A stretch of 64,000 nucleotides of DNA from Saccostrea cucullata (lineage: Eukaryota): the NCBI RefSeq assembly GCF_032062105.1, contig NW_026941496.1:62001-126000 (forward strand), in the 5' to 3' direction. Positions 230 to 48,212 of the stretch are shown here, piece by piece. The translations under genes were made by a program, and so were the position numbers. Each line of letters opens with the position of its first letter. The first letter of the stretch is position 1. The notes beneath the pieces are model-generated. The model made no database searches and had not been told where the DNA came from. It was given only the letters and a program-made list of their open reading frames with translations.

Positions 230-1410
230 TAATCGAACAATATTTCCCAAACAACTATATAGTTCTGCTTGACACGTCATTACAGGTGACGTGAGTATAG
301 TAAATAATGAGGACCTTAAATCACATTAATTATAAATATCATAAAATTTCATAAAAGAACTAAAGATTAGGACTTCAAATCCTTCAAACATTCATAAATA
401 TTATGAATTCTTGTGTTAGAATCAATGGAGTACGAGAAATGGAGAATGGAGTATTCTTAAAATTGTTTTTCTCGAGGTGTTGATATTGAATTTGAACCAA
501 CATACTAATAACGGATATTTCAACTAAAAAATATTCTTCTAAACAAAAATACACAGCCGGTTCTAGTAAATGTTCTCCCAAGTCTCTATAGTCCTCACTA
601 AAATATATTAAAATTGGTAAAGTATATAATATGGAGACTCCAGGAGTACTGTGTAACAAATATATTCGATAAGTGGTAAATCAGATGTGGATACTTAAAA
701 ATTCCAAAAGACCTTTAGAAGATTTAAGATGACAAAATCTACTAGAATCAATAACATCGAAACAAACGACTTTTCAGCAATAAAGTTCAGTCCAGGCGTT
801 CTGACACCAAAGACAGCTGTTTTTCAATAAAAAGTCATTGATCATTTGCCAAATTATTTTGTTAAAACATTTTTACTGTACACATTAATACTCCGAACTT
901 AGTATTTACGATGCTTGAGTTTCTAACAGTTACGACTTAGGTTTTGGAGATCAAGTCTTCCTACAGTCTGTTAAATCATGGGTACCCATTGGGCAGCCAT
1001 TTTAAACAGACCTGTCAAAAACATGCCCGAGAAGAAAACAATTGCATGGCCGTCGACTTCACATTTTAATACATCGATGACGTATGAATAGTTACTTTCA
1101 TTCATTTGTCGACTCGAATTAATTCATACCCGAGAAATTGAATTAACAGATACCACAGAGTCCATCGTCGCAAACCACGGCCAAAATGTACGATCCTCTC
1201 CCATTCTGAGAGCTATATGCGGACTCCGGACCGTGGCTTGAGACGATGCACAGTGTCTGACTCATTTGTTTAATATTGAAATACATGTACTTCAGAAAAA
1301 GGCGCTAAAGGTGACAAAATAACAGAGTTTCATGATAAACATTATGACTTCAACTTGGATCTGTAACCCTGGTTTATCTGTCTCTTCACAACACAGACTG
1401 GTACACTTTC
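230..1410 (+). mobile_element. Highly decayed Penelope-like retroelement fragment
   Basis: Remnants of HVITGDVSIVNNEDLKS, VNQMWILKNSK, MGT..A and YIDD; similar to the better-preserved copies at 41.5 kb and 47.8 kb. Confidence 0.7.
1163..1248. mobile_element. 86-bp MITE with 9-bp target duplication, nested in the retroelement fragment
   Basis: TIR CATCGTCGCAAACCACGG / CCGTGGCTTGAGACGATG; flanks cacagagtc / cacagtgtc. Other retroelement copies show the empty site gataccacagagtctgac. Confidence 0.8.
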
Positions 1411-1492
1411 ACTTAGATATATGTTTTTAAACAAGTTCGAGAATTGATTAACATATTTACATGTTCAATAAATAAAAGAATACAATACTCAC

Positions 1493-4400
1493 CTTATTAA
1501 CAGAACAGAGTTCCATAGTTAGATAGCTCGCCTTGGACTGAAACTGTAATCGGTAGCCACACACCGTGGACATCTTGTTTTTCAGGTCCTGGAGAAAGGC
1601 GACAAGTATAGGTTTGGGGTTAACCCGGGGGAGACAGTGGATGTCCCGGGCCCTCAGACATACATCAGGGTAAGTGATGTCAGTCAGGGAGAAATAAAAT
1701 TAATATCGATTCCTTTTCTTTAAAGACAGTGTTTAAAAAAAACACAGATGCCTTAAAGCAATTGAATTTTTTCTAGTTGGTTTAAATAGTTTAGTCGCAT
1801 TAAGTTTCATTTTTCATTTAAACTTTGTTAATAATGTTAAATCATGATAAAAAATTGATTAAATTTTTAAGTGCGGTAACAAAAGGGAATAAATTTGAAA
1901 ATCAAAGAAAGTCTACAATTTTGCAATAAAATACCAGTATGATAGAGATTTGATATATATCGACGACGCATCACCAAAAAACATAAGTAATTCTATTCAT
2001 ATGACGACTTGATATATCCAAGAGAGTTCAACATGAAAGATACCACAGAGTCTGACATATGTTTCACAGTTTAATGTTTTACTTGAAAAAGAAGTTAATG
2101 GTAATGGTAGTCTAAAAATAAAGCTTAATGATAAAGTTAACGTGATTACGTAAACTCTTTATCATTAACTTCCCTTTAAATACAGCGATATAATTTTATC
2201 AGCTGAATATCATCTCTTTCAGTTGATTTAATACACAAGAGCAAGCTCTTAGTCTAATTTTATACAATTTCTAAAAGAGGCAAGCTGTTGACAAACAAGT
2301 TGATGAAACAAAAGTATCAATAGTTCTACGGTCGATACAATGACATTGTCATCAAATACACTATATCATTAAGTCAAATGCTGACTGACATTTTGCATTC
2401 TAATTGTTAGGCAATTATATACACACTGTATTGTCGACGGATTTTTTCCGTTATTTCCTGATCCTGACTAGAAGCACACAGCGCGTGTGACCGGTCGGTA
2501 CTTTTCAATAGTGCCAGATCCAACCTCTGATTGTTTGCTCTGCTTCTGATTTTGTTGTTTGAATTGATTTTTTAGCTTCAATACTGGCTTGAAAACCAAT
2601 CTAAGTCCAAAAAATATAAATCAACCCATTAGTTTATTCTTCTTGTTTGTTTCAGTTGTATCCTTAAGTTGAAAATCAAAATATTTATTAATAATCATTT
2701 CCATGTGAGCATAATTGCAGAAGAGATGTAACAGGACTGTAAGTTTTTTTTTCACCATTTCCTTTTTGAATTAATAACATTTTTTTTTCATCTCCGATTT
2801 GACTTTATATATTTCTGAAATCTATAAAAAGAGGATGTGACTACTCGACAGTTAATAAACCAATGTATTTTTAAGATGGTACATGTATATTAAAGGATAT
2901 GTAAACACCCGGTCCCCCAGAGGTCTGAAATGGATCTGGTAGTAGATTATGTCCTCCTCGTTTTCAGGTAGTCGATATCCATACTGCAAAATTAAGCAGA
3001 AAAGAAACAAAAATAAAATCAAACAAAAAAAAAATCAAAGAAAATCATATGATACACTTCTTCAAATTTTTTATCCCACAGGAAATACTATTATTGTCAG
3101 TAAAGATATAAATTGATTATTACAAAATTAGAATACATTTGATCAATTGATCTTGACTTACTGAATTTTTCCAGTGTCTTTTGATTTCTTTGTAGGATTT
3201 GAACGGACCATCTGTAGGCAGCTGTCGACCAATGCCCACTATCTGTCCCTTTTTCATACTGAGGTTGAAGTTTCTTTTTTGATCACATTCTTTAACTTTG
3301 GTTACATTGTCAAAATAGATTTTTGAGCGCTTTGAATTAACAATTGGCAAAAAAAAAAAATGAAATTTAAAAAAAAGCTAACGTACCTTGGTAACACGTG
3401 GCACCATGTAGAACCAATAGAATCTCCAGAAATAACAAAGTTACGGTCTTCCGTAAACTTTTTTAAACTTTGAGGAAGAAGTTCAATGTCAGAAAGCTAC
3501 AATTTAGAAAACAACTTAAACTGAACTGAGTAAGATAACTGTTTAGTACATAATATGGATATCTAGTCAATTCTCTCTTGTAGAATGTTGGTGAAACGCA
3601 CTAGTTTTACACCTTACCTGTAGGGCAGGAAACCTGACAGTGGACGCTACGAGGGACAGATGCAGCTGACCAAAAGTGACCACCAGGTCCATTTCTGGGT
3701 AAAGATAAGTACAATACTTCAAGATGCTCATTCATGAAAAGGAAAGAACGACAACTCGAAGAGAAAAATGAACTTACTGACGGCATTATCATATCCTTGG
3801 TGTGATAGAAAATCTCGACCTAGAGAAGACATTTTGGCTTTAGCACTATAATATAACTAAACTCAGGAATCACAAAATTGTATGTCTTGTTTAATTTGTC
3901 TCTTTTACCCTGAATGAGCCACTGCCCTGCTTTGTTCCAGGATGGGGCGATTCTGGCCAGCAAGGTGTAGTGTATACAGGACTGGAACAAGGCTGTCGTC
4001 ACAGGCTGGGGGTCACTACACTAAACATACAATGTGTAGTTAGTACACCCTCACAAACTGTGCACCTCCTCCGTAATTACTTGCCTAAATATAATTGAAC
4101 CTTACCAGGACAAAGCGTTATATATTGATTTTCAGATGGACGATATCAATGAAGCCTTTATAAATGTAACCAAAACTTGTTGACCAGAATAAGTCCATTG
4201 TCATGTTCTAAATTTTGAATTTACCGGGTGGGAGTAAACACAAAATTTAGAAGTTGTCATGTTCTAAGTTTTGTATTTACTCCCACCCGGTAAATTCAAA
4301 ATTTAGAACAAGACACCATGATGAGATGCAATGCACCCTGTCCTAGTGTCTGTATTTCTTTCACCTAAATCTGGACACCATGTACTTTATGTAAGAAATG

Positions 4401-7400
4401 CATTTCCCATTGTTCTTTAACTTGATCTTGCCAACTCTGGTTACACGAGACATAATCATTATGACTTTGTAAGTAGACTCAATTACTTGTGGTAACTGGA
4501 AACCCAGCCCAACTCAGCTTTGTTATTTCTCTTGGATCAAATTATAACACCTGTTTTTCAAAAATTTCATGTTAATATTTATTCAGCCATGCGTCATGTA
4601 CTATCTCATATGGAATAAATACCTGTAAACCGATCTTGGAAAATCTTGCTTGTAATTTCCCAGTGTTAAATAACGTCCTCTGAAATGAACCACACGAATT
4701 TACATTTTGTATTTCAGTGCCCTTTAAATTTATTAAATTTTTGTGAATATAACAAATGCTTATAAATAGGATGTTATATATACATGTGTACATGAAGTTT
4801 GCTGAACACGGGAAGGAAAAAAATTACCTTCAGTACAACGTGAAATGCATTGTCCGTGTTAAAGGAAGGCGTTGCTATAATTTCTGGCTCCGTAAATATT
4901 AGCTCTCTGTAAAATATTAAACTTATTTTCTAGTAAAAAACTTTACATGTACATAATATTTGAATGTTTAACAAAATAATAAAACAGCGTCGTGATTCCA
5001 CCGAAATAAGCTTTGCGTTAAATAAAACAGGTTTCACTTGTGAAAAAAATAAGCTATGTAGACCATTTGCTTCATTTTAGGCTGTAGCTTTTTTGTTGGT
5101 CTTTGTTCATATCTGATTTTTTTTTTCGTAGATGCAAATAACTTAAAAATACCGAAGACATGTATATTATAAACATGCATTTGGCATCTTAAGTATAACC
5201 TCTGGAACACAATGATAAAATCCTTTTTGAAAATAATATTTTTTTTTTAGAAAACATAGAATCAATTTATAACGTTCTTACGCATGACGGCACCCTCAAC
5301 ATGATTTATGCATATCATGACTATCTATGTTTAAGATAAATTCATCTGTTTACTAATATAAAAATGGAATATATATTATATTTTTTGAATAAACTAGAAA
5401 TACAATGTGTTAGTAAAATGCCCAAGATTATTACAGTAATACGGTATACGGTAAAAATTGACCAAAAATAACGTTTTACATTGAAATGATCATTTAGAGT
5501 TATTTCTCTTATCAGCCTACATGTATCATTGACGTCTTCATGAGAAATAATACTATAATTTCTTGAGAAAAAAATGTACTGTCATATAAAAAAAATCTAA
5601 TTACCATTTTTTGCAGAACTGCAGGTAGATGGGGAAAAAATCGGTCAGGTAAGTTACGAATCTACTCGTAAAATTTTCCATTTATGGTATGTTTTTTTTT
5701 TTGGCCCCCGTAATTGAAGATTCGGGATGGGGATAGATTTTGCCCTGTCCGTCCATTTTTCTGTCCGTCTGTGTGTTTGTCTCTTTGTCCGCAAAAATTT
5801 TAACCTTGCCCATAACTTTTAAGTGGATGGGGCTATGGTTTCATATTTCACAGGTGTACAGTGAACCAAACTTCTAAGTGTTCACGGTCACCTAACATTT
5901 TTAAGTTATAAAGAACAAATGCATACAAAAAATAATATCTTTAATTCATGGTTAATGATGCATATTTCAGTTCGATGTTGCGTAATTTTCAAGTAAGTAT
6001 CTCGTAAGATTTTAAAGCAAAGTGTCATGGACATAATGTACGCTCAAAATAAAATTCACATAAAACAATATTTATGGAATTAGACCACCACTCGCTCTAA
6101 TTACTGCGACATCCTTTTCTCATGGATACCATGTAGCCCAGAATAGGAGATTGACCCATCTGCTGCCACACGTTTTGCAGGGATCTTTCAAAACCGTTGA
6201 AATTGTGTGGAGGGGGGGGGGGGGCTTTGACATTACTGTTAAAAGTCCCAAATGTGTTCAATGGGATTCAGATCCGGTGAGTTAGCAGGCCAATGCGCGA
6301 AAAAGCCTTTTGGTCTTTATCTTGGGCGTTTGTAGGTAAGTACACCTCTTTCAGGATGATTCAGACTGTTTAAGATGATACTGGACTGCCATGCGCACCA
6401 AATTGTCGCCATTTTCTTACTGTTGAAGTTGTTGATTTAAATGTTTCTAAAGTGGTTCAGGACCATGTAACAATGTTTTTGACCTCGTTGTAACGAGAAA
6501 CCTTGGCCTCAGACGAAGATTCAGATCACTTCTGGTTTGGTTAAATTTTGTCCAAAGCTTACAAATTGTGAAAAGTATGCGATGAGAATGACAAGTAGTT
6601 TTTAAATAAATACATTTATTAGAGTGAAACTTAGAAGTTTTGTTAAGTGTATTCCTTGTGACAACACCTTTCTGAGGGTACCACCAAATTTGACCTCTTG
6701 ATCTTGGAATCTGACCCCCTTTTACCAAAAAGGCCCTAACTTTAACCTTGGCAATAACTTTTGAATAGTTGGTGCTAGCCCTCTGCTAGGGCTTACATAC
6801 ATGTACTTTACATAAGTTTTTTTACTGTGACAAGACCTTTCCATGGGTATAAATATTTTTGACCTTTTGAACTTGACTTTAGAGTTTGACTTTTAAAAAT
6901 CTTTAACTTTGGCCACAACTATTGAATAGTTTTATACTTCACAGGTGTATTCCTTGTGACAAAATCTTCTTTAGATGCGAACAATTTTGTTTTTGAATTT
7001 GAATTTAAATTGAATTTGAGAATCTTCAGTCCTCGCTATGGGCTTCTATATATGGGGGCATGAGTTTTCCACAAACACTTCTAGTTTAATATGGCAAGTT
7101 TGAACTTCATGTACCTAATATTGTACTCCTTCATCCAATGTATTGCATCAAAAATTATTTTTAAAGTACTTTATTTGCGAACCTCTGTCTATCCGAATTT
7201 TCGTTCCCAGAGAGCTACAATTTTGTAATAGTATAGTTACGCCTGGTTATATGTGCAACGAATCATAATTTCATTTCCTTCACGGGGCCTTGTTTGTTTG
7301 TTTGTCTATAGTGGTAAAATTTATTGTCGGGCAAAGAAGGTACGTCACCGTAGAGATACCAGTTGTCCAAACATTATGAGATGATATTCCTTATAAATCT

Positions 7401-7701
7401 ATGGCCTAATACTAGAAAATGCTGTCAAATTCTTTTACAGAATACACGTGTACATGTATGATGTATACGAGTCTGCCAAGACAGCGGGTACTAAGCTAAC
7501 AAAGTGCCTGTGCCCTGTAGTTCTACCAGGCCCTGGTGTACTTGAATATTTTACTTACCTGCATCGTATGATGTGAGGTTGTAGAGTTGATGAAATATGG
7601 AGGTTTCTTGTTATGCATACGGTAATTGCAAGCAATTCTTCTAAGGGAGGACATTCAGCCAAAACAATGACAGGTGTGGAAATATTGTCTTTACCGTACA
7701 T
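1493..7701 (-). CDS. C18orf63: C18orf63 / DUF4708 family protein, 10 coding exons visible (327 codons); no stop reached, so the gene probably continues past the left edge
   Basis: Exons (minus): 7559-7701 (ATG at 7701), 4828-4906, 4623-4679, 3909-4020, 3778-3819, 3618-3694, 3387-3496, 3162-3258, 2901-2983, 1493-1673. All phases join into one open frame. Eight introns are GT-AG and one is AT-AC. The peptide has [64 protein letters not shown] and FTYPDVCLR, matching my recollection of human C18orf63 ([47 protein letters not shown]). The last visible exon ends at a GTGAGT donor. Confidence 0.9.
1674..2900 (-). other. U12-type (minor spliceosome) AT-AC intron of the C18orf63 homolog
   Basis: Minus-strand 5' site ATATCCTTT (2900-2892), branch-like TTCTCCCTGAC (1693-1683) about 10 nt before the terminal AC (1675-1674). 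Splicing gives in-frame VF-T-YPDVC. Confidence 0.9.
1935..2590 (+). mobile_element. Penelope-like retroelement 3' fragment inside the U12 intron
   Basis: YIDD, KDTTES, ISQLI and FYGRYND remnants followed by the shared 3' UTR. Confidence 0.8.
4199..4315. repeat. Near-perfect palindrome (about 55-bp arms) in a C18orf63 intron
   Basis: tgttctaaattttgaatttaccgggtgggagtaaa ... tttactcccacccggtaaattcaaaatttagaaca. Confidence 0.85.
5695..7086 (+). mobile_element. Non-autonomous Helentron/DINE-1-like element with internal repeats, interrupted by a Tc1 derivative
   Basis: T-run start with GCCCCCG..CGGG stem, (GTCC/GTCT)n-like microsatellite, repeated units (aaccttggccataactttt..tattccttgtgaca..gacctt) and terminal GGGGGCAT..cacaaacacttctagtt. 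Confidence 0.7.
5859..6649 (-). mobile_element. Tc1/mariner internal-deletion derivative
   Basis: TA|CAGTGAACCAAACTTCTAAG ... CTTAGAAGTTTTGTTAAGTG|TA. The minus strand retains WPANSPDLNPIEHIWD (Tc1 catalytic-E region). The empty site cacaggtgTAttccttgtgac is seen at about 6940. Confidence 0.88.
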
Positions 7702-9744: not shown

Positions 9745-11841
9745 TTAATCGTCCTCTTCTTCTCGCAGAGGTTTCTCTTCCATTTTGCCATTGACAACAG
9801 TTTTATCGCCATTCACAGCCAGTGATATATCGCCCCTTTTCGACACGTCCTCCTTGGGCATATTTGCATACTTATCCCTGTTACACCGCTTGTAGATAAG
9901 ATAGATAATGGTCAACAAGAAGAGAGGTAAGGGCGTCATTACCCCAGAAGCTATGGGGGCCACGGCCGCAATTTCCCCATCGGGTGGCGGGGAGGCCGTG
10001 AACATAAGTAATATGGCGATTCCCTGATTCTGAATCCCGGTCTCTATAATGATTGTTTTAACCTTGGTCCACGACTGACGCAGAATCAGAGAAATGATTC
10101 CTGACAGCACATAACCACAATATGGCAGTAAAGCACCAGCGAGTATGACTTTAGGCTCGAAGAACTTAAAAATAAACAAGTTTGTGTAGATGCCGACTGA
10201 CAGTAGGACGACGATGGCGATGATAGTGACGGGGGTGATGATCTTCATCAGAATCTTCGTTAGACGTGGTAATTTGTACTTAATGGCGACCCCTACCAGT
10301 AACGGCACCACCAGGATCACCAGGGTCGTGAAAATGTTCAGGAACGGGATGTTCATCTCCGTGTCAGTGCTCAGTTCATTGATAAAAACTTGACCAAGTG
10401 TGTAGATCCATAGCGGCATCATTGCTGCAAGTATAGAAAATTAAATCTGAATGTAATCACGATCAAAGCGTTTTAATATGCATTTTAATTGTGTTGTTGT
10501 TAAGAAAACAAGAAAAATATAATTTAAAAAACTCATTTTTAGATTCTGTAAATCAGTTTCAATACCTAAGGCTGCAATTGTGCTGATGGTCGTCATGGTG
10601 ATTGAGAGTGACAGGTCTCCATCCAGTAAATGAGAGTATATGTTGCTAACCCCGCCTCCTGGACATGTACCGGAAATGAAAATCCCCAGACCCACGGCAT
10701 GGTCCTCTGGAATCACCAGCTTTGCTATGCCAAATGCAATCTAAACGTCAAGAAGTAAGATATTTTTAAAGTTTAGAATAAGAAATATCAAAGATAGAAA
10801 AACTATACTTATTTTGCTGCTGACGTAATGAGCCTGATATTAATTTCTCATACGAATCAGTACTGTACATGTTCCACTTGATCCGAGATAAACTTCACTT
10901 TATTTTTTTCTATGGATCCAATGAAGTAGAACAGAACAAAACGGGTAAGTTTTATTATTTCAACAAAATTACATTTTTATCAGATAAAGTCAAAGTAATT
11001 AAATCCCCCTCCCTTTTCTCTGCAAGTTGCTTGATGGATCAGACCTAAAACTTTTTTCAGAGAGAATGAGAGTCAACCACTCTAAAATCTGCAGATAGAT
11101 AGATGTGAAATGTTATGTGCTTACCAATGGCATTAGGATATACTGACAACTGATTCCGATCGCTGGGGCAACAGGGCGGCGCAAGTTCTCCTTTACAACT
11201 CCAAGGTCAAGTTTACATCCAAAGGCCAAAGTTACGAAAACAAGGAAAATGTAAATAACAACACGGAAAATCGTATCGAGCACTCCCATTTTTCTAAAGA
11301 CAACAACATGATAAGTGCTATAGTCTTCAACAGATAGGTTGTTTTGCATGTTTCCTAATTTACGGAGTTCAAAGGCCAGAAATGTCCGTCCTATGAGTTC
11401 GCCGTAAAGGTTAAAGGTTAAGTTTCCTCTAATGCCCATGCGATGAATCACGTGATAAGGCTGGGAGACTGTAGATGCATCCTTGCCCATAGGTAAAACG
11501 TTTGGTCCGTCAGTAACATTTACCAAAATTTCAGTGGCATTTCCACAGGAAATGATCGTGCTGTCTGTTTGTCTGACGGTGAATACCTTTTTTCCTTTAC
11601 TAAATACTCCCAGTCGGTATTTTTCGCTGCTATGATTACAATACAAGGTATATTCTACACTGAACGTAGTCTGTTGATACATCATTAGAATGAACGGTTG
11701 ATGCGGTCCCCACTTCAGCTCAAAGTGGTCGTGTGTACGATTTGGCATTATTTCTTCGACATCGTATCCTTGTCTGGCATTTACACCCACCACAGTCACC
11801 AGAATTAAGGAACAAACCACTTGTTTCATAATTTGTAACAT
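9745..11841 (-). CDS. SLC10 family sodium/bile acid cotransporter-like protein (about 523 aa, 3 exons) with signal peptide and long extracellular N-terminus
   Basis: Exons 11125-11841 (ATG 11841; alternative ATG 11829), 10566-10740 and 9745-10424, with GT-AG junctions and consistent phases. SBF motifs: FGCKLD..VKENLRRPVAPAIGISCQYILMPL, CPGGGVSN, LDGDLSLSITMT, IETGIQN. Confidence 0.92.
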
Positions 11842-14534
11842 CGTATACAACACTAGCACTTTCTCAGTTTCGCATGCTTTAGGTGCAATACGAAGTTTGT
11901 TGTGGTAAATCAGCCGATCGTGTAATCTCCTTTAGAAGTCTTGGCGATATAAAAGGATGTCAGGTAAATCTGATAGCAGGTAAGTCATACCTGTAAATTA
12001 ATCCAATCAAACTCGGCTTTAAATTCAGTGGCCCAACTTCACGGACTGTTAAATCTCAGAAGCTGAAAGATATCTCTAAAGAAAACAAATTCTTCACTTG
12101 ATTAAGATCCTATCCGATACTTACACTGTTTTTGTTTACCTGTTAGGAATGTCGATGTTATTTGATTCTCAGACTGAACGCTCTTAATTAACATTCAAAG
12201 CCTACTTAAATGAAAGGACCTTTTAACAAGAAATGATGTAAGAATGACTTAATTTAGTTAGATTCGAATGACAATATAAATAATGGCTCAATATTTTCCC
12301 GAAAATTAAACGTGGTATTGCTACCAGACTAGAAAAATCAAATGAATACGACAAAAATTACAAGATTAAAGAATCCTCAAGGTTCCCTTTATCAAATAGG
12401 ATTACATATTATGTATACATAGCCTGATTACACAGTTTTTCTGAACAGGTTAAATGGTGAAGAATGTGCATATTCAGTATTAATTTTTATTACCGGCGGT
12501 GAAGCACTGAAGACTACGAGACGGACGTTTAATTGACCGTTTTCCAAATAAGAAAATAATTTTAAAAAATAATATATTTTTAAAAAATCCTAACAACAAC
12601 ATTTCAGGTTCCCCCCTCATCATAAATTAAATATTATTGTGTTTTTATTGGCCAGTCGATGTTTTGATTTTGTGAAATTGCACGCATTTAAACCTGAACT
12701 TGAACTGTTGAAATGATTTATTCTTAATATTTGAATGAATAACAATTTTAAAATATGAAATACATACAGATTGTGCTAGAGCGTTAAAATAAACAAAGTG
12801 ACATCTCAAGTTTGCAAACAGGCATTGAAATGTTTTAGATACTGTCACCTGGTTTAGATTTTCATATGTGTGTATACTTAATAAAATCCTGATACTCTCC
12901 CTGACAGAGACTGTCCACTCGTGTTTTATTGACTTATCACGGGGCCATTGTTTGTACAGCCAACACACTCCTTTATTGGCAAAACAATATGATATTTTAA
13001 TGATAGGTCTGAATTTTTACTGACCGATAGAAAAGTGCATGGGGTTATAAGTAAACGGCACTTTTAAAAAGTCAGACATTCCATCACACAGTAAGGGTGT
13101 CAGTGATGGAATATGGCAGAAGAAACAGTTTTTTTTCGGTCAAAAGAAATTTCACAAATAACAAACAGTTATTTTCAATCTTTAAGAGTTTGTTAAAATA
13201 ATTATTATTACTGTATTTATTTGGATTTACCCAATTTCATCTTAAATAATCACAGTCGATCACTTTGTAGTGGTGAAAAATTATTCCAAATCACTATGAA
13301 GTAGAATTTATTCAAAAACTTCTACATGAGAAAGAGAAAACACTTTCTTTCACCTTCAAATCGATATCCAGATATATTTACGACGTGTTATCAATAAACA
13401 ATCAAGAATCCATTTATATGTTCAATCAAACTTGCAATGAAAAAGCACCACATATTCTGTCGCATGTTTCATATTTGGACATGACGATAGGGCCAACTTT
13501 TGACTAAATTGTATATAAAGATGACCAGTTTCACTAACATGTTCTGGATACGACCAACTTTTAAACCAAAGCAGGCTACTGAGAGACAAGTTAATGCTAC
13601 AAGGATTTCAAATATCTCGTTTAAATTTAATAGTTCGTAAATTCCATAATCATTAATATGACAAAGTTAGCAAATATAGTCCATCATTAGGCAGTTAGGT
13701 CGCTTTTGATCGATGTGTTGGTACCAGTAGTTAAGTTTTTTAATTATGCTAAAGTTGACAACAGAATATTCAATCTTTCTGCTCATGTACAAAAAAAAAA
13801 CCCTTGGCGGTTGAGACCGGTCGACAAGGATGGCTACTCTTCCAAAGATCCTAATTCCCTGACTGGAATTTCTGGGTGCTCTTTGACTCATTCACAGGTT
13901 AGTATTATTTGTAGATTACTAGTACTTCACCTTTTTTATATACCAGTACATTTTTGCAAGTGGCATTGGTGGTCATTGTAGGGTCATAAGTTAACCATTT
14001 GAGCCCTGTGTAGAGTCTCCCGGACTCTGAACCCATTGGGGAATTTTTCAACTCTGGTAGATAACTTCTCGATTATTCTTGTTATAGTTTAATTGATTTT
14101 CTATCTTTCATCTTGGCTCATCTTCATCAAGTATACAGACAGTTCTGCAAAATGTCCATAAGTTGAAAGAAAATTATCAGATGTCCTATATCCATTTTAA
14201 CCTCGCTTGTACTATGAGGATTTTTTTCAACCCTGATTTTTGAGAGGTCAATGTTTGCTGTGCTCCTGATTTGTATTGTTTGAATGGACTACTGTTCGTT
14301 ATCTCCATATATTATGTCATGCATAACTGCTTGATATGACAATGCCAACTGTTTTGTGCTAGTTGTCTAAGAGTAATTGCTTTCGAAAATTGCACTTAAA
14401 ACTTTTAGTTCTCCAAAGTCCTCAGTCATAAAACAACCCACTTTTTTCTCCGTAATTGCGATGAACAATAATTGATTGATTTTTTTTCTCACTTTATAGT
14501 CAATAAGCTGGAAAATCCTATATCTTTAGGAACG

Positions 14535-14845: not shown

Positions 14846-16447
14846 TTACCAATATAAAAATTTAACAATTAAACTTTTACATACCAACAGGTTCAACCAA
14901 TTCGAATTTTCCTCTCCAAAGTCCCAACTGTACTCCAAAATGCCATTAAAATACGGTGTTCAAGTAAGGCATAAAATGCATAAACTAATATGAAATTGGA
15001 GTTCTTGTACAAATTTTGAGCTGCCGACCAGAATTTTTTTTCACCTTTCTATACAATACAATGATTTTTCGGTAAGGTCAAAACTAGTTTTGCCTACCAT
15101 GAACTTTGGTCTAAGATAAGGAAAATAATATGGTTTACTCAAGATTTTTGAATGCGTTTAAAATATTATCTCATTCGAAGTAATTCTTCTCGAAGAGTAG
15201 TAAGGGTTAAGATATCTTCAAATGACTTCAATGATAGTAAAGATTGCACATAAGAGCCTAGTAAATCTAGATTAAGGGTCAAAAGGTTAAGGTCATGGGT
15301 TGATATCTATGAAGAAGTGAGACCACTCCCGGTAAATTCTTGTTCTGCTCTGTGATACACTTACTACTCTTTTCTCAGCTTTAGCATTTTTAATGATAAC
15401 CTGGTCCGGACACCATAAGTTTTTGCCTTCATAGAAAAGTACAATTATCCTAATATGACAAATATGCGACGATGAATCGCAAGGCCAGAAACAGGCAAAC
15501 ATTGACAGCAGATTTATCCTCATTATCTATAACCAATGTGCATGAGAAATGAACTTTTGTTAGGGACTGCAAAAATGTTCACAGGAACTTTAAATGTCAA
15601 AAACTGTGTACACATACAGCTAGTTTTCGTGACACACATGTTGTAAATTATTGTCCTGGTTGATCTAGCAAGTTATTTTTGAAATTATATCAATTGAATT
15701 CTAAATATAAATTAAGCCATTAAAATTACCTTGAAGCTGTCATACAAAAATGATTAAAACCCAAACTCCACACCAAATATCAAAATCAAAAATGATTTTC
15801 CTCTCAGTGAAAGCAACTATTTATTTCTGTTATCAACACATAGGATGTATAAACCAAAGATAAAACACCTGTGCCATGCAGTGACATGCAATGATCCATG
15901 ATTTTTATTTTTCAAAGAGCGGCTGGAGTGTAGTTAGGGATTCACCCTGATTTAAACATGTATGTTTGAGTATATATAATTGTTGTACTTTACCTAAGAA
16001 TAAATTTTAAAACAGAATAAAAATTAATTGAAATTTTAATTTAAAAAAAACCTCGAAAATAAATAAAATGAAAAAAAGATTTGAAAATGGAAATTGGAAT
16101 ATTCACATGTTAAGGAATACAACTGACTGAAAAAGGAAGCGTTGGATACACATTGACACTTTTTCGATTGGAAAATCAACAAAAACTATAACTATTCCCT
16201 CTTGGGAATATCTTTTTACATCATGCCGGATCATATACAATGTACTGTTATTTTTCAGTAATGATTATCTTCATTAAACAATTGAAACGTATGAATTGCT
16301 GATAGATATTTATTTTCACTTCAACAAAAGGTAACAATTTGCTCAGAAACTTAGTCTATAAAATTTAACTATTAAAAATAACTGAAGGGAAAAATCATTC
16401 CATTCAACAAATTTTTTGAGTAAATTTATATTTTTCTCATATCTTAG

Positions 16448-18675
16448 TTCAAAGAGAGTTGAGGAATACAAGGAGTTTGCTGTCTTCACAGAAACAGATC
16501 CATTGATACACTGCACCATAAGACGACTGAGTCTTGACAATTGTGTAAAGAGAACTCTCCTGCAATGGCCAGCACTACAGTCCTATTTCCCAAGTCACAA
16601 AGATGTTGAAAGATCTGGAGGACGAGTGAAAAAGATTGCAGAACTACTGACCAATCCTGAAGTCAAACTTTACTTCTTGTTCCTTGATTTTATCCTTGTA
16701 CCTCTCAATGAGTTCAACACTCTTTTTCCGGTAAAATTAATGAATATGTGGTGCTTTAAGGTTTCGTCAAAGGTCAAAATGTCTAAAAAATTATTTTTAC
16801 AATAGCTCAAAAACTATGTGTGGTATAAAGTCAAAACGTTAATAGTTTATAAATATATTATTGATAAATAGATAGAAAGTATCACTTGGTAACAAATATT
16901 TTTTGAGAAAAATTGTATCAGAAAATGTGCAAATTTAAAGAAAAATGCACCTGCTTTATTCTGTCCTTTTTGTGAAAACCATCATTGCAGAAATAATATA
17001 TGTTTATCATTTAAGGGCAAGTTGGACGTGAATGGTCTCTGAAAGGCTGTTATTGAAAGCATGACATGTATAAAGACAAGACCCCTATAAAATCCGCCAT
17101 TTGCAATGTACTTTCACTTTCAAGTCTTAATTAACATTTGGACAAAATAAACAGGGAAAACAACTTTCCAGAGGCTGTCCAAGTCCAACTTGCCCTTCAT
17201 TGATCAACATATTTTGTTTCTGCAATGATGGTTTTCTCTTAGAGAACGGAATTAATTAGGTGTATTTTTTGAAAATATATGCATTTTAAAGAAGAATTTT
17301 TCTCAAATAATATTTTTTCCAAGTATTTTTTTTATCAAGTGATATTTTCTATCTGTTAATCAATGAAAAATTTATAAACAGTAAAAGTTTTAACTTTATA
17401 CCTCACATAGTTTTGGGGCTATTGTAAAAATAAATTTTTGGACATCTTGACCTTTGACGAAACCTTAAAATCTAGAAATAATTTAGTATTGAAATAAATT
17501 ATGATTGATGTCTTTTTTTGTCATTTCAACAGTGTGATCGTTGTCTGCTGGGATCTGTGAAGTCAGAAATGGAAAGACTCCTAAAAAAATACACAGCAAA
17601 CTTCATCAAAAAGTCCGTCATTTGAGAACACAACACAGACCTTACTAAAGTACTATTCTACTCTAATGAGGCCCAACTTACAGATGAACGCCTGGCTGTT
17701 GGAATGTCAGCTAGATCTTTCCTGGCAGAAGAGGAGGAAAACATTCCAATTGCAACACCATCAAGATTTTTCATATAAGTAATACAGAATCAAAATTTCA
17801 CTTTGAAACATAATAAACAAAATTTAAAAAAAGTAAAAATAAAAATTTAGAAATTATGTTGTTTCTCATTGTAGGTTTGTCAGAAAATTCTACCAGGCTG
17901 TGGTTTCTAAAATGGTGAAGAAATTTCCATCTAATGATTCTTGTTACAGGATCTCAGAATCATTGATCCCCAAAATAGAAAGGATATTACAGCTGAGACA
18001 GGTTACAACAGTTATTTATTTCAAAGACATGTGCACTTAAAAAAAAATAAAATCATACACTCTGATAATTTTATTCTTGTAATTCAGCAATGAACTTGAC
18101 TAAGAGGTTCAAAATTCTTCAAGATGAGGACCTGGACTCTTAAGTGCTTTGGCTGATGAGTGTCATGATTATGCAGTTTCCCCCGATGATGACCTTCCAT
18201 CAGCTGAACAGGAAATCAACACATTTTGGATTGAAATGTCCCGAAAGAAGCTGGCCAATGATGAGCTCAGATTTCCCAAACTTTGCTCTATAATTAAAGC
18301 CATGATGGCAATTCCAAAGTCAAATTTTGAGTGTGAAAGAGTGTCTTCTTGTTAAAAGAAAATCCAAACCAGTTTCAGGTCAGAGTTATCTCAGGAGACC
18401 ATCTGTTTCATTCTAGCAAGTACACTTAACAATGACAATGTTTGCTTTCAGTCTATTCCAACAAAGTCAACTCTCCAAATGGCAAGAATAGCCACTAAAC
18501 CTACTGTGAAGAACACAAAAACTTTTGTCTGATTTAGTATTGTTGTTAATCTCATTATTCATTATAGCAGAATTTGAACATTTAGCAAAAATGCCGCGGA
18601 AAATGCCGCGCACAATGCTCCCTCTTTTGTAGTAAAAATCTCCCTATTTTTCACCACTGCAGGTTAACGTGTATG
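16448..18675 (+). pseudogene. Intron-containing hAT transposase pseudogene (3' part) with probable right terminus
   Basis: Exon-like blocks 16448-16730 (KRVEEYKEF..IRRLSLDNCVKRTLLQWPALQSYF..LNEFNTLF), 17533-17774 (internal TGA, donor mutated to ATAAGT), 17875-18001 (frameshift) and 18088 to about 18530 (FW..RFPKL..AMMAIPKSNFECERV..KKIQTSFRSEL, the hAT dimerization motif). Terminus-like AGGTTAACGTGTATG ends at 18675. Confidence 0.82.
16760..17464. mobile_element. Non-autonomous foldback element with long TIRs and TTAA target duplication (Kolobok-like), inserted in a hAT intron
   Basis: TTAA|GGTTTCGTCAAAGGTCAA ... TTGACCTTTGACGAAACC|TTAA. Imperfect inverted arms extend about 270 bp (to AAGGGCAAGTTGGAC / GTCCAACTTGCCCTT). 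Confidence 0.85.
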
Positions 18676-19189: not shown

Positions 19190-19750
19190 CGCTATTCTTA
19201 ACCTGCAACCAAGCTTTATGATAATTAAACGTGATAACTATAACTTTGCTATCGTCACCTTCCCTTACGTATACTGCAATGTGGTTTCGTCGCCTGCGTC
19301 GGAGTTTGTGTATCTCAGTTGATTCGATTCACAGGAGCATGCTCTACGTGTGGGCAATTTCTTGAGCGAGGTAAGTAATTGACAAACGGGTTGATGGGGC
19401 AGGTGAGTCTGCAGTATCGTTGGGAGTCATTATTTCGAAAATTCTATGGTCCATACAATGACCTTGTCAGCGGATACAATTTGTCGTGGAGTCGGGAGCT
19501 GACTGGCGTTTTTCATGCTTGTTGTTGGTTGTTGGTCCGTTGTTTTTACACTGAGATGATGGCAGATTTTCCTTTGTTACCCGATCATGACAAGGAGCAC
19601 ACCACGGGTGTGATTGGTCGGCAGGCGATGCGCACTCCTCCATAGCACCTGATCCCACCTCTGAAGTTTTTCAGCTCTGTGTTTGCTCTGCTCCGATTTT
19701 GTATTGTTTATATAGCCTTTTGATCTTGAAGACTATTCGATCTCCATATG
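19190..19750 (+). mobile_element. Penelope-like retroelement 3' fragment
   Basis: TTKLYDxRD, SQLIRFTGACSTCGQFL and FRKFYGPYNDLVS, then the conserved 3' UTR (gcacctgatcccacctctg). Confidence 0.82.
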
Positions 19751-38729: not shown

Positions 38730-40385
38730 TACGCGGTGTGCTCCTTGTCATGATCAGGAAATAAAGGAAAAACCCGTCGTCAACACAATGTGTAAATAAT
38801 GGACTAACAATAAGTATGAACAACGTCAGTCAGGATTTGACTCAGTGATCAACTGCATTTGTTGACAAGGTCATTGTATCGACCATAAAAATTAATTAAT
38901 ACATTAAGATGACTTCCAACGAGACTGCTGATATTCTTGTTTCGTCAAGTTGTTTGTCGTTTTAGAAATTGTTCATACGTAGAGCATGCTCTTCCGTATC
39001 AACTGAGATATATAAACTCCGTATGGAGGTGATGAAGGTATATTGCTGCATAAGTAAGGAAAGTTGACGATAGAAAAGTTAAGGTCATCACGTTGTTCAT
39101 AGAGCTTGGTTGTTATTACCATTAACATCTTTTTCAAGTGAAATATCCAATAATGAAACAGATATGTCAGAATCCTTTATTTCATGCTCACCAGGATATA
39201 TCGTATCGACATAAGAATGGAAATTACCATTGTTAAGGTGGCTCATTACATCCACAGTTTATTTTAGATTTCAATACAGCACCACTTATAATGTAGATGT
39301 CAAATATCCAGATGGTGGTCTTGATATCGTAAATATTTTTAATAGAATTTTTTAGTTTTTGTCTAATTTTAGTGAAATGTTTTATTTCAAGCCTATTATT
39401 AACAGAATTTCAGTTCAGAACTTTCAGTGTCAAATGATGGGCATCTTCTTCAGACAAGTACACACGGTGAAAATACCTCATAATACCTTATAATAATTTT
39501 ATTAGAAAAAATAATTTTCTCCTAGAAAACAATTAATGTCATAATCTTTTTAATCTATGCATAAAACATTAAGAAAATGTGTTCTGAAGAGACAAGGAAT
39601 GTATTTCAATGAATTACATGTGTCAAATTGAATGAAGAAAGTTTAAACGAAATGAAAAATCCAATTTAAAAAATATTTGGTATAAAAAGTCCACTTTCAA
39701 GAGTTATCTTTCCTAATTAGCCAAGACTCAAAACACTATGGAACGTTTGACATTACATCTAAAATTCAGAACAAAGCTTTAAATTGCCAGAGTATACATT
39801 TAAATCAATAAAGCAAATATATAAATTAACACCAACACAGTAAATAGCGCAAGTAAATAACTTTTTAATTTCAACAAGGTTGTAGATTTTAACTCGAATT
39901 TCCTCCATACATACATGTCATTGATTGATAGAGCTCACTACATGCATGGCTATGAAAGTGACATTACTTGTTTGGCGAAGATTTGACTGTTGTTTTCTTT
40001 TATTTCTGCTTAAAAGCAATTCTTCTTGGTTTATGCATAATGATTCCGTTACTTTGTTTTCACTGTTTACAACACCGCATGTTTCACCTATTTTTAAAGC
40101 GTTTTAAAGGTCAGGGTCATATTATAGAGGTACCTGTACAATTCGTCCCCAGCGGAAACCGGTTGACACAATGGAGGTTTATTTTTTTGTGTAGTACGTC
40201 ATCAAAAAGTGGTGTAATGAGCCTCCTTAAGTGACAATACGTCGTCAATATATCTTAATGTCGAGTTGAATGCCACAGTAAATGTTTTCTTTTCACGTAT
40301 TAGATTTGGGACAAATTCTGCTTCATATGAATACAAAAATAGGTCTGCCTTATAACGGGGCGCAATTGGTACCCATGAGAATTCA
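38730..40385 (-). mobile_element. Penelope-like retroelement RT fragment split by a Kolobok-like insertion
   Basis: ADLFLYSYEAEFV..FNSTLRYIDDVLS (40231-40385) continues as NNGNFHSYVDTIYPGE at 39236 and below. Confidence 0.85.
39237..40226. mobile_element. 990-bp non-autonomous element with TTAA target duplication (Kolobok-like)
   Basis: TTAA|GGTGGCTCATTACA ... TGTAATGAGCCTCC|TTAA; removing it restores the retroelement sequence. Confidence 0.85.
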
Positions 40386-40469
40386 AATAGATTGCTGTAC
40401 AAAGAATTTTATCGAATCATCGTAGAAATGAAAAAAAATGTTGCAAATTTGTAAAAAGGCGCTCATATA

Positions 40470-40785
40470 TCGTAAGTTCTATGGTCGATACGATGACCTT
40501 GTCAGCAAATACAGTTTATCATTGAGTCAAATGGTGACCGATGTTTTTCATACTTACTGTTAGTCCATTTTTTATACACTGAATGGAAGTAGGATTTTCT
40601 GTTATTTCCCGATTATGACAAGGAGCACATCGCGTTTGTGACTGGCCAGCAGGGGATACTCACTCCTCCATGGCACCTGATCCCACCACTGATATTTTGG
40701 ATGTTCCTGTTTGCTCTGCTCCTATTTTGTATTTTTTTTTTTGGACTTTTGATATTGAATACTGTTCGTTATCTCCAGATGATTC
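40470..40785 (+). mobile_element. Penelope-like retroelement 3' end
   Basis: RKFYGRYDDLVSKYSLSLSQMVTDVFHTYC* plus the conserved 3' UTR. Confidence 0.85.
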
Positions 40786-41517
40786 ATCTAAATTTTGAAT
40801 TAAAGACCACAACACTAGACTTTTACTTTATTTACTTCGTTTGATTTTAAATGTTTGTGTGTTGGTTTTTTCTTTTCTTTTTCATCTTTGTATAGTTTTT
40901 CCGGGGTGTTTGTGTTGTTTTTTAAAGTGTGTGTGTGTGGTTTTTTTAATTTTTTTTTTTTTGAAAATTGCAGCCACGTAGCATCGGTTTTGAAAATGAG
41001 GAGGGGGCAGCCAGAGAAATTTTTTTTACTTACCTGAAAAAGTTGACAAGCAAAAAGAAAAAAAGGGAAAAGTCTCCCAAAGTCGAAAATTCTATTTCGT
41101 GAGGGGGGGGGGGGGGGGAGGAGTATAAGACAACTTTGTTCAATACCCCCCGATAAGTTCCTTCCATAAAAGTAAGTAATACTTATGCAGTAGTCCTGTT
41201 GGTGTGTCGTTGCAGTACATGTATACGCTTGACCATGGGCACTTCCGGTTCCGGTTTCAGTGAATTTCCGGTTAAACCCTAGGATGGTTTAGTGGTATCT
41301 AATCTAGCAATTTTTATATGTTGTATGGAATTATAACTACTTGACGTGCTGATATCTTGCATTGTAATTGATTGTAAACGCCTCACCTTTATCAATGATG
41401 TAATCTTTTCTGATTGAAGGATATCCAGTTTCTGTATATCCTATGTCGTCTATAAACTTCTCATGTTCTTCTATTTCATCTAAAGATTCTGCAGTTTTAT
41501 TCAGATTCTTAGATGGA

Positions 41518-42620
41518 CAGCTTAAAAACTTACGACTTTTAAACATTATACACAACCATTCCCCACGATAAATTAAAGTCCAGGCTTTCTGATCTCATTG
41601 ACAGCTGCTTTTTCAGCTAAATGGAACTGAATGGAACTCGTAAATTGACTTACTTGGTCATTTGTCATTTGCAAAATTATTTTGTAAAAACACATTCTGA
41701 TTGCACACACAAGTACTCTGAAGTTGACATCAAAAAGATACTTGAGTTTCTGATTGACAATATCTATGTGGTTTTTGGAAACCATGTCTTCCAACAATAT
41801 GTTGGAATTTCCATGGGTACCAATTGCGCTCCGTTATTAGCAGACCTATTTTTGTATTCATATGAAGCAGAATTTGTGTAAAATCTTATGCATGAAAAGA
41901 AGAAAACACTTGCTGTGACCTTCAACTCAACATTTAGATAAATCGACGACGTATTGTCAATTAACAATGGTAATTTTCATTCCTATGTCGATACGATATA
42001 ACCTGGTGAGCTTGAGATAAAAGATACCACAGAGTCTGACACATCTGTTTAATACTTGGATATTTTGTTTGAAAAAGATGTTAATGGTAATAACAACCAA
42101 GCTCTATGAACAACGTGATGACCTTAACTTTTCTATCGTCAACTTTCCTTACTTATGCAGCAATATACCTTCATCACCTGCATACGGAGTTTATATATCT
42201 CAGTTGATTCGATATGCAAGTGCATTCTCTACGTATGAACAATTTCTAAAGCGAGTTAATTATTGACAAACAAGTTGATGAAACAAGAATATCAGCAGTG
42301 TCGTTTAAAGTCATCATTTCGTAAGTTCTTTGGTCGATACAATGACCGACCTTGTCAGCAAATACAATTTATCCTTGAGTCAAATGCTGACCTATGTTTT
42401 TCATGCTAATTGTTAGTCAATTATTTATACATTGAGTTGACGACGGATTTTTCCGCAATTTCCCGATCATGACAAGGAGCACACGGCGGGTGTGACTGGT
42501 CAGCAGGGGATGCTCACTTTTCCCATGGCACCTGATCCCACCTCTGATGTTTAAGAGGTATGTTTTATTTTGTATTGTTTTATGGACTTTGATATTGAAT
42601 ACTTTTCGTTATTTCCATAT
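41518..42620 (+). mobile_element. Best-preserved Penelope-like (probably Naiad-type) RT fragment, 5'-truncated, with stops and frameshifts
   Basis: KTYDF.TLYTTIPHDKLKSRL, QQYVGISMGTNCAPLLADLFLYSYE, FR*IDDVLSINN, TTKLYEQRDD and YGVYISQLIRYA. The ORF ends shortly after the RT thumb with no C-terminal GIY-YIG domain. Confidence 0.9.
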
Positions 42621-43659: not shown

Positions 43660-44300
43660 ATGGTGATAACGAACAGTTTTCAAGCTCAAAAGTCACGGAG
43701 TTGTGAGTATTTCCTGTCGACCGGTCACACCCCCAGTGTGCTCCTGGTCATGACTGGGAAATGACAAAAAAAGTCCGTCGACAAATTAGTGTTTAAAAAA
43801 ATGACCAAACAAAAAGTATGAAGAACGTCAGTCAGCATTTGACTCAATGATAAATTGTATTTTCTGACATGGTCATTGTATTGACCATAGAACTTACGAA
43901 ACTTTATAACGAGCTTGCTGATACTATTCTTTCATCATCTTTTTTGTCAATAACTTATTTTGTTTTAGACACTGTTCATACGTGGAGCACGCTCTTGGGT
44001 ATAGAATCAACTGATAGATATATACCTCGTATGCAGGTGATGAAGGTATATTGCGTAATAAATAAAGGAAGTTGCCGATTGAAAAGTTAAAGTCATTTTG
44101 TTTATCATAGAGCTTGGTTGTTAGATGAAACAAATATGTGATATATGTCGGAATCTGGTTTCTTTATTTCAAGCTCACCGGGATATATCGTAAATGAAAT
44201 AAGAATAGAAATAACCATGGTTAATACGTTGTCGATACAGATTATTATCGAGTTGAAGGCTACAACAAGTGTTTTCCTCTTTTGTCGTATAAGATTTTAA
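43660..44300 (-). mobile_element. Penelope-like retroelement 3' fragment
   Basis: TTKLYDKQNDFNFSIGNFLYL..NIPSSPAY; inverted relative to the 41.5-kb copy. Confidence 0.85.
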
Positions 44301-47764: not shown

Positions 47765-48212
47765 ATACATCAGAAACTCAAGCATATTTTTGATGTCGAC
47801 TTCCGAGTACTTGTGTGTACAATCAGAATGCTTTTTAACAAAATAATTGTGCAATTGACCAATAATAAGCTAAGTAAATTTTCGAGTTCTTTTTTATTGA
47901 AAAAGCAGCTGTCAATGATATTGAAAAGTCTGGATTTTAATTTGTCCTTGGGAATGGTTGTGTATAAAGTCGTAAGTTTTTAAGCTGCTGATTTTCGTGA
48001 TTTCAAAGTTTCTTTAAGTTCCTTGGAATTTTTAAGTATCCACATCTGATTCACACCACTTCTTGAATATATTGTTGCACAGTACTCGTGAAGTTTTTCC
48101 TTCACTACTGTTAATATCTTCGCGAGGAGTAAAGAAAGAGGCTTGGTTGAACATTTTCTGGAACCCGCTATGTATCTTGGTTTGTAAGGATTCTTATGAA
48201 GTTTTGGAATAA
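47765..48212 (-). mobile_element. Penelope-like RT N-terminal/fingers fragment
   Basis: IPKLHKNPYKPRYIAGSRKCSTKPLSLLL..SRSGVNQMWILKNSKEL..LYTTIPKDKLKSRL. Confidence 0.85.

What the first reader, a model, noticed from the sequence alone, without database searches (positions are those of the whole stretch)
1674..2900. AT-AC U12-type intron whose 5' end mimics the next exon
Seen: a perfect ATATCCTTT donor, a TTCTCCCTGAC branch-like site and an AC acceptor give the only in-frame join I found between exons 9 and 10. The unspliced read-through also encodes T-Y-P (ACA TAT CCT), as the spliced junction does (ACT TAC CCT), and then stops after about 15 codons. GT-AG-only predictors would mis-model the gene, and retention would truncate it inside the PAZ-like motif. 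Established: AT-AC introns are rare and often rate-limiting. The intron has also tolerated a roughly 650-bp retroelement insertion.
Basis: partly seen in the sequence, partly recalled or inferred. Interest (0 to 1): 0.7.

Follow-up and report, generated by a model that had tools for sequence, protein, structure and literature searches.

The report
Ancient minor intron in oyster C18orf63
An oyster gene carries a rare AT-AC intron that likely corresponds to one already catalogued in human C18orf63; its look-alike start is most likely a coincidence of two fixed patterns, and the more interesting lead is that the host protein is predicted to fold like the front half of an Argonaute.

Summary
The intron is real: minus strand 2900-1674, 1,227 nt, phase 2, AC|ATATCCTTTA...TCCCTGAC-9 nt-AC|T. 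It is intron 9 of 13 in oyster C18orf63/DUF4708. RefSeq protein XP_062596488.1 already reads F-T-Y-P-D across it. This genome has U11, U12 and U6atac genes that pair with its donor and branch site. Human C18orf63 is a catalogued minor-intron gene with a CAC|ATATCCTTT donor. Six metagenome loci have an intron at the same FT|YP site: one AT-AA, four GT-AG U12-type, one degenerate.

The mimicry exists but is explained. Any phase-2 U12 donor reads Tyr-Pro, and Tyr-Pro is nearly invariant in the protein, also where the intron is absent. Free codon positions match the donor 5 of 18 times (6 expected). It does mislead annotation: at least six database proteins read into the intron.

'Only in-frame join' is overstated (14 GT-AG joins stay in frame), but only this join gives the conserved protein. 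The retroelement fragment (about 630 bp) is confirmed. No RNA reads were available.

Side result: the host's first 330 residues are predicted to fold like the Argonaute/PIWI/MED13 N-L1-PAZ-L2 lobe; the intron splits the PAZ-like part. I did not find this in print.

The parts
1674..2900 (-). Intron 9 of C18orf63/DUF4708, U12-type AT-AC, phase 2, 1,227 nt
   Evidence: RefSeq protein P0001 uses this join
2891..2900 (-). U12 5' splice site ATATCCTTTA
   Evidence: +4..+9 pair 6 of 6 (one G-U) with this genome's U11 nt 3-8; +2..+9 pair 7 of 8 with its U6atac box
1682..1694 (-). U12 branch region TTTCTCCCTGACT, predicted branch A at 1684
   Evidence: 9 of 11 positions pair with this genome's U12 with the A bulged; a mussel-like ortholog has TCCTTAAC at the same 9-nt spacing
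1674..1675 (-). AC acceptor
2852..2854 (-). First in-frame stop if the intron is retained (282-aa product)
1945..2570 (+). Decayed 5'-truncated retroelement fragment, antisense to the gene: RT C-terminal half (about 1956-2407) plus 3' tail; probably Penelope-like (Naiad)
   Evidence: longer copies hit RVT_1 weakly, E 2e-4 to 3e-4, below the curated cut-off; clade inferred from Craig 2021 passages, not tested by tree
2901..2983 (-). Exon 9 (aa 240-267, ends F-T)
   Evidence: (PF15813)
1493..1673 (-). Exon 10 (aa 267-327, starts T|Y-P-D-V-C)
   Evidence: single match in the genome
3162..3258 (-). Exon 8
3387..3496 (-). Exon 7
3618..3694 (-). Exon 6
3778..3819 (-). Exon 5
3909..4020 (-). Exon 4
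4623..4679 (-). Exon 3
4828..4906 (-). Exon 2
7559..7701 (-). First coding exon (ATG at 7701); coding exons 11-14 lie left of the window, in L009

Best explanation
This is an AT-AC intron with U12-type donor and branch signals in oyster C18orf63, likely removed by the minor spliceosome and likely orthologous to the catalogued human one, and its Thr-Tyr-Pro read-through is most likely a coincidence of the fixed U12 donor with a conserved Tyr-Pro motif. Shown: the signals, the protein restored by this join, pairing to this genome's U11, U12 and U6atac, and an intron at the same site in six other loci. Inferred: U11/U12 recognise donor and branch, U6atac takes over the donor, A1684 forms the lariat, and 2901 joins 1673. 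In phase 2, xxR-TAT-CCT-TTN always reads x-Tyr-Pro-Phe/Leu; Thr is forced by the exon's AC; Tyr-Pro is held by the protein, at the end of a predicted PAZ-like strand. Retention would stop at 282 aa with four junctions downstream, so it is predicted to trigger NMD rather than make a useful isoform. The practical effect of the mimicry is on aligners, which run into the intron. The retroelement sits away from both ends and is likely neutral.
For: Signals and chance values. RefSeq join. snRNA genes and pairing. Human donor CAC|ATATCCTTT, branch TGTTCTTTAACA, 1,192 nt (Olthof 2019 supplement rows). Of 19 metagenome loci, 6 have an intron at FT|YP. Y268 is found in 117 of 117 aligned homologs and P269 in 117 of 118. 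L042 and L043 lack this intron but keep Y-P. Free codon positions match the donor 5 of 18 times, 6 expected. About 2.4 two-codon mimics are expected by chance in 722 introns (residue frequencies recalled, phase mix assumed). Read-through mis-models: P0011, P0020, P0195, P0199, P0202, P0204.
Against: No junction reads for this species. The human intron's position is inferred from the donor context and from a mole-rat model that ends FTYP-F..., not from human exon sequence. The oyster branch site has one core mismatch (TCCCTGAC). For one phase-2 intron taken alone, Y-P next is unlikely (about 0.002). The intron-less L042/L043 read TT|A TAT CCT at the site, which shows that coding sequence there can spell the donor.
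Confidence: 0.85

Rival explanations
1. The mimicry is a fossil of the intron's birth: coding sequence AC-R-TAT-CCT (Thr-Tyr-Pro) already spelled a U12 donor, and a tandem duplication or an insertion at this proto-splice site made the intron. The intron itself is real either way.
For: All six junctions with both ends in hand have AC at the exon end and N-TAY-CCN after the intron. The oyster junction has a 2-nt AC repeat. Intron-less L042/L043 read ATATCCT at the site. Most vertebrate homologs have Leu after Y-P, which the donor also encodes.
Against: Every matching base is forced by the amino acids; free positions are at chance. A duplication would not supply a U12 branch site. Invertebrates mostly have E, D, S or N after Y-P, so the Leu looks derived. 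Chance predicts a few such cases per genome. Any neutral trace would have decayed since the protostome-deuterostome split.
Confidence: 0.1
2. The read-through is used: retention plus intronic polyadenylation makes a 282-aa truncated protein that keeps T-Y-P, as a regulated switch.
For: Two AATAAA lie on the gene strand downstream of the stop (2689, 2638). Some database models end just after FTYP-F/S (P0195, P0199, P0202, P0204).
Against: The read-through tails are not conserved in length or sequence (oyster 15 codons, L040 4, L048 2). They lose C272, R274 and the L2-like part. AATAAA is common in 33% GC DNA. The truncated models may be annotation errors.
Confidence: 0.04
3. The junction is really spliced as a GT-AG intron by the major spliceosome (for example 2882 to 1653), and the AT-AC signals are incidental.
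For: 14 stop-free in-frame GT-AG joins exist.
Against: All of them delete C272 (117 of 117 homologs) and R274. The donors are weak and the nearest acceptor has no pyrimidine tract. Four other oyster proteins read FTYP-x-x-C. Orthologous U12 signals are conserved.
Confidence: 0.01

Closest known systems
Human C18orf63 minor intron (ENST00000579455, chr18:74342327-74343518; Olthof 2019, PMC6717393 supplements)
   Same: Same gene family (PF15813); AT-type donor ATATCCTTT after an exon ending in AC; similar length (1,192 vs 1,227 nt); U12 branch site.
   Different: Oyster branch TCCCTGAC against human TCTTTAAC. The oyster intron holds a retroelement fragment. The table lists it as 'HumanOnly' relative to mouse. 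Its exact codon position in human was not read directly.
U12-type (minor) introns: AT-AC, GT-AG and AT-AA subtypes (Moyer 2020 PMC7367187; Larue and Roy 2023 PMC10639083)
   Same: RTATCCTT donor, branch A 10 nt from the end, no pyrimidine tract after the branch, non-zero phase. Larue and Roy report AT-AA as the commonest non-canonical minor-intron end and relative minor-intron enrichment in molluscs.
   Different: Nothing in kind. This one site shows AT-AC, AT-AA, GT-AG, a degenerate donor and absence across relatives.
Argonaute/PIWI N-L1-PAZ-L2 lobe, MED13, and split Argonaute N-lobe partners (chains 9lgw_B and 8pvv_C)
   Same: The model of host residues 9-330 aligns to MED13 (Z 13.3-13.5, rmsd 5.5-5.6, 265-268 aligned), MILI (Z 11.2, rmsd 4.9, 272 aligned) and the SiAgo-Aga1 chain (Z 9.4, rmsd 4.3, 161 aligned). 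Dicer PAZ regions align to residues 167-277 (Z 5.5-6.0).
   Different: Identity is 7-12%. There is no MID/PIWI half in the 757-aa protein: a long low-complexity tail follows, then a weakly SAP/HeH-like end. Nucleic-acid binding was not tested.
Naiad Penelope-like retroelements (Craig 2021, PMC8557442)
   Same: RT at the C-terminal end of the ORF with no endonuclease after it; heavy 5' truncation; very abundant in bivalves.
   Different: The intronic copy is a decayed 3' fragment. The N-terminal GIY-YIG domain and the clade were not tested.

Membership tests
U12-type intron | 5' splice site RTATCCTT | tested here: met
   ATATCCTTTA; pairs with this genome's U11 and U6atac
U12-type intron | TCCTTRAC-like branch site 10-20 nt from the 3' end | tested here: met
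   TCCCTGAC, one core mismatch, A 10 nt from the end; 9 of 11 pairs with U12
U12-type intron | Removal restores the conserved reading frame | tested here: met
U12-type intron | Minor spliceosome snRNA genes in the genome | tested here: met
   U6atac, U12 and U11 each have 3 matches over the Rfam cut-off; U4atac was not searched
U12-type intron | Position conserved as a minor intron in orthologs | tested here: met
   L036, L037, L040, L045, L048 with both ends, L035 donor only; human gene listed
U12-type intron | Excision in vivo depends on U11/U12/U6atac | not testable with these tools
   needs junction reads and knock-down
U12-type intron | intronIC score above the minor threshold | not testable with these tools
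   intronIC was not available
C18orf63 / DUF4708 (PF15813) | Pfam match above cut-off | tested here: met
   E 5e-85, 285 bits, aa 15-282
Argonaute/PIWI family (host protein) | N-L1-PAZ-L2 lobe fold | tested here: met
   predicted model pLDDT 90.7; Foldseek E about 1e-7; VIA Z 8-13.5; ESM Atlas PAZ 0.90 for aa 165-285
Argonaute/PIWI family (host protein) | MID and PIWI domains | tested here: not met
   The modelled part ends at L2; Pfam finds only DUF4708 in the whole protein; the tail is low-complexity and poorly conserved. The tail was not folded separately.
Argonaute/PIWI family (host protein) | Binds small-RNA or DNA guide 3' ends | not testable with these tools
   needs biochemistry
Penelope-like (Naiad) retroelement | Reverse transcriptase homology | tested here: met
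   tblastn E 2e-21 to the ORF of a longer copy; those copies hit RVT_1 weakly
Penelope-like (Naiad) retroelement | N-terminal GIY-YIG domain and placement in the Naiad clade | not tested
   only 3' parts of copies were fetched; no tree was built

The most novel reading that the evidence does not exclude
C18orf63, an uncharacterised gene of pre-meiotic germ cells, encodes a stand-alone Argonaute/PIWI N-lobe (N-L1-PAZ-L2, no MID-PIWI) with a SAP-like tail: an animal counterpart of the split N-lobe partners of prokaryotic Argonautes. It acts on small RNAs or DNA in the germline, and the minor intron kept inside its PAZ strand from oysters to humans makes its production depend on minor-spliceosome activity. 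The fold part alone is about 0.85 likely; the full functional reading is much less.
Probability: 0.2. Interest if true: 0.75.

Novelty: already known. Interest (0 to 1): 0.3.

Why it matters
The intron itself is ordinary: a known class, already used in the RefSeq model, with a catalogued human counterpart. Two uses remain. First, the site is a compact example of U12 subtype change (AT-AC, AT-AA, GT-AG, degenerate, absent) and a reproducible annotation trap; C18orf63 models ending in FTYP-F/L/S should be distrusted. Second, the fold result gives a testable hypothesis for a human gene that is testis-enriched (13 TPM-scale value in testis, 0.12 or less in seven other tissues) and named as uncharacterised in a meiotic infertility gene module (PMC9792524 passage).

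Tried and rejected
RNA evidence: no RNA holder was listed for window 1450-4050, so no reads were laid; this says nothing either way.
Sequence search of the family profile against PDB found no real relative (best E 0.03, low-complexity); the Argonaute link is by fold only.
Rfam scan of 1400-3200 gave three sub-threshold chance hits and no snoRNA or ribozyme.
No target-site duplication longer than 6 nt was found around the retroelement fragment.
The Olthof 2024 supplement has no C18orf63 row; its main text was not read.
Literature searches with no hit: C18orf63+Argonaute, DUF4708/PF15813/zebrafish name, C18orf63+PAZ. C18orf63+PIWI gave 8 papers, 7 listed; two were read at the matching passages and neither links the fold. 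Subscription papers, database annotations and bioRxiv supplements were not searched and may already note the fold.
Earlier scan findings: none.
The alternative acceptor AC at 1683 (adds 3 aa) was rejected because it is the branch site itself.
The SAP-like C-terminus is a lead only (scores 0.76-0.77).
A Pfam scan of all alignment members was not completed, so PAZ hits among individual homologs were not counted.

Full report
Observation. On the minus strand, exon 9 (2983-2901) ends TTT AC. The intron starts ATATCCTTTA at 2900 and ends TTTCTCCCTGACTGACATCAC at 1674. Exon 10 (1673-1493) starts T TAC CCT GAT. The length is 1,227 nt and the phase is 2. Read-through gives F-T-Y-P-L-I-Y... and stops 15 codons after Thr, at 2854-2852. 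Under a second-order Markov model of the window the donor has a probability of about 2e-5 at a given site, and a branch-like 8-mer about 6e-4 in a 13-nt window. The claim 'only in-frame join' needs a correction. Among donors in exon 9 or the first 150 intron bases, and acceptors from 200 nt before exon 10 onward, 14 GT-AG and 69 AT..AC joins are stop-free. Only 2900-1674 gives the conserved protein without an indel.

The gene. Exons 8 and 9 hit DUF4708. Exon 10 is 100% identical to a protein named C18orf63-like from Saccostrea cucullata, XP_062596488.1, on a contig of this same length. That protein reads RVFTYPDVCL, so the RefSeq model already uses this join. It maps to 14 coding exons, four of them left of the window. 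Exons 1-10 reproduce its first 327 residues exactly, and introns 1-8 are GT-AG. Exon 10 has one match in the genome.

Minor spliceosome. U6atac, U12 and U11 each have three matches over the Rfam cut-off in this genome. Donor +4..+9 pairs 6 of 6 with U11 nt 3-8, with one G-U. Donor +2..+9 pairs 7 of 8 with the U6atac box. The branch region pairs 9 of 11 with U12 when A1684 is bulged, and that A lies 10 nt from the end. These pairings are computed, not observed.

Orthologs. Olthof 2019 (PMC6717393; supplement rows seen, main-text passages) lists human C18orf63 as a minor-intron gene: donor CACATATCCTTT, branch TGTTCTTTAACA, 1,192 nt, expressed almost only in testis. A metagenome scan gave 19 loci. 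Six have an intron exactly at FT|YP. L040, whose nearest named proteins are from Mytilus, is AT-AA with a perfect TCCTTAAC at the oyster's spacing. L036, L037, L045 and L048 are GT-AG with GTATCCT donors. L035 has a degenerate GTAACCTT donor and no acceptor in the contig. L042 and L043, near-identical to each other, have other introns but lack this one. Six loci show no intron across their match (probably transcripts, so uninformative) and five do not cover the site. L045 and L048 are close relatives, so the independent lineages are fewer than six. Larue and Roy 2023 (PMC10639083; section 30 read, other passages seen) report AT-AA as the commonest non-canonical minor-intron end.

The mimicry. 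In phase 2 any RTATCCTTN donor reads x-Tyr-Pro-Phe/Leu, and Thr is fixed by the exon's own AC. Among the 120 best homologs, Y268 is present in 117 of 117 aligned rows, P269 in 117 of 118 and C272 in 117 of 117. Y-P is kept in L042/L043, which lack the intron, so the protein holds it. At the three free codon positions the next exon matches the donor 5 of 18 times in six junctions, against 6 expected. With recalled residue frequencies and an assumed phase mix, about 2.4 two-codon mimics are expected among 722 minor introns, and about 0.5 of the Y-P kind. Against this reading: for a single phase-2 intron Y-P is rare (about 0.002), L042/L043 spell ATATCCT in coding sequence at the site, and most vertebrates have Leu next. 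A proto-splice origin is therefore not excluded. Moyer 2020 (PMC7367187, passages) discusses proto-splice sites for U2 introns and the U12 bias against phase 0. Baumgartner 2019 (PMC6865273, passages) has no such term.

Effect on annotation. Of the 120 homologs, 113 have a clean F-T/S/N-Y-P-x-x-C. Two (Mytilus coruscus P0011, Ruditapes P0020) show FTYP-L/F, an insert and a second YP, which is the pattern of reading into the intron. Five differ in other ways. Among the further representatives, four end just after FTYP-F/S: mole-rat isoform X2, Mactra, Antedon and Pecten. Three of these four have XP_ accessions. Whether they reflect retained transcripts or model errors cannot be told. The mole-rat case supports a mammalian intron at this exact site.

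Retroelement. About 1945-2570 on the + strand, antisense to the gene, is 70-75% identical to at least 40 other places. It aligns, with stops and frameshifts, to the C-terminal half of an RT ORF from a longer copy (E 2e-21), and such copies hit RVT_1 weakly. An RT with nothing after it, in a bivalve, fits Naiad Penelope-like elements (Craig 2021, PMC8557442, passages); this is inferred. The same family has many fragments in the window, so an intronic copy is unremarkable.

Host fold. An AlphaFold model of residues 1-334 from 94 sequences has pLDDT 90.7. Foldseek returns Argonautes, PIWIs and the CDK8-module chain MED13 at E about 1e-7 (the name MED13 for that chain is recalled). VIA-align gives Z 13.3-13.5 to that chain (rmsd 5.5-5.6, 265-268 aligned), 11.2 to MILI residues 224-561 (rmsd 4.9, 272 aligned) and 9.4 to the SiAgo-Aga1 chain B (rmsd 4.3, 161 aligned). 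Dicer PAZ regions align to residues 167-277 at Z 5.5-6.0. The ESM Atlas ranks PAZ clusters first for residues 165-285 (0.90). A shared fold shows no function, identity is 7-12%, and no MID/PIWI half is present. Searches found no paper making this link. Passages in PMC9792524 and PMC9570461 call the gene uncharacterised in germ cells.

Mechanism. Shown: signals, frame, orthologous introns, snRNA complementarity. Inferred: excision by the minor spliceosome; NMD of a retained transcript (stop upstream of four junctions); neutrality of the insertion. Untested: retention level or any regulation. Olthof 2019 saw no retention for 467 of 722 minor introns in mouse tissues, so 'rate-limiting' cannot be assumed here.

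Verdict. A real, conserved U12 intron that is already annotated, with a mimicry best read as coincidence. Interest 0.3, lifted a little by the subtype series and by the Argonaute-lobe fold of the host.

Noticed in passing
window 7701-1493 (-) and L009; protein P0001 aa 9-330: C18orf63/DUF4708 is predicted to adopt the Argonaute/PIWI/MED13 N-L1-PAZ-L2 fold without MID-PIWI; no paper linking them was found in four searches.
   Followed up: partly
P0001 aa 700-757 (last exons, in L009): Conserved C-terminal helical domain, weakly SAP/HeH/Ku70-tail-like (ESM Atlas 0.77).
   Followed up: partly
L040 6106-7164: Orthologous intron with non-canonical AT-AA ends and a perfect TCCTTAAC branch site in a mussel-like sequence; the K-Y-P in the Mytilus coruscus mis-model also fits an AA end.
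   Followed up: yes
L035 about 526: Orthologous donor degenerated to GTAACCTT, possibly converting towards the major class; the acceptor is not in the contig.
   Followed up: partly
L042 1314, L043 2570: AT-rich genes with other introns lack this one, and their coding sequence reads TT|A TAT CCT at the site.
   Followed up: partly
P0001 T267 and homologs: The residue before Y-P is Thr in 176 of 184 clean cases but varies (L, V, C, S, I, A) in divergent homologs and in the intron-less loci; it may reflect divergence or a splice-site constraint on the exon's last AC.
   Followed up: no
window 9745-11931 (-): Upstream neighbour that reads like an SLC10 bile-acid:sodium symporter gene (recalled resemblance, from the ORFs).
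   Followed up: no
window 13295-13692, 19227-19525, 38807-39252, 40217-40560, 41513-42413, 43809-44296, 47768-48004, 52234-52534, 63635-63838: Further decayed fragments of the same RT family in the window.
   Followed up: no
window 16386-16805 and 18128-18355 (+): ORF pieces that read like a hAT-type transposase remnant (recalled resemblance).
   Followed up: no
window 2689 and 2638 (-): Two AATAAA inside the intron, downstream of the read-through stop.
   Followed up: no
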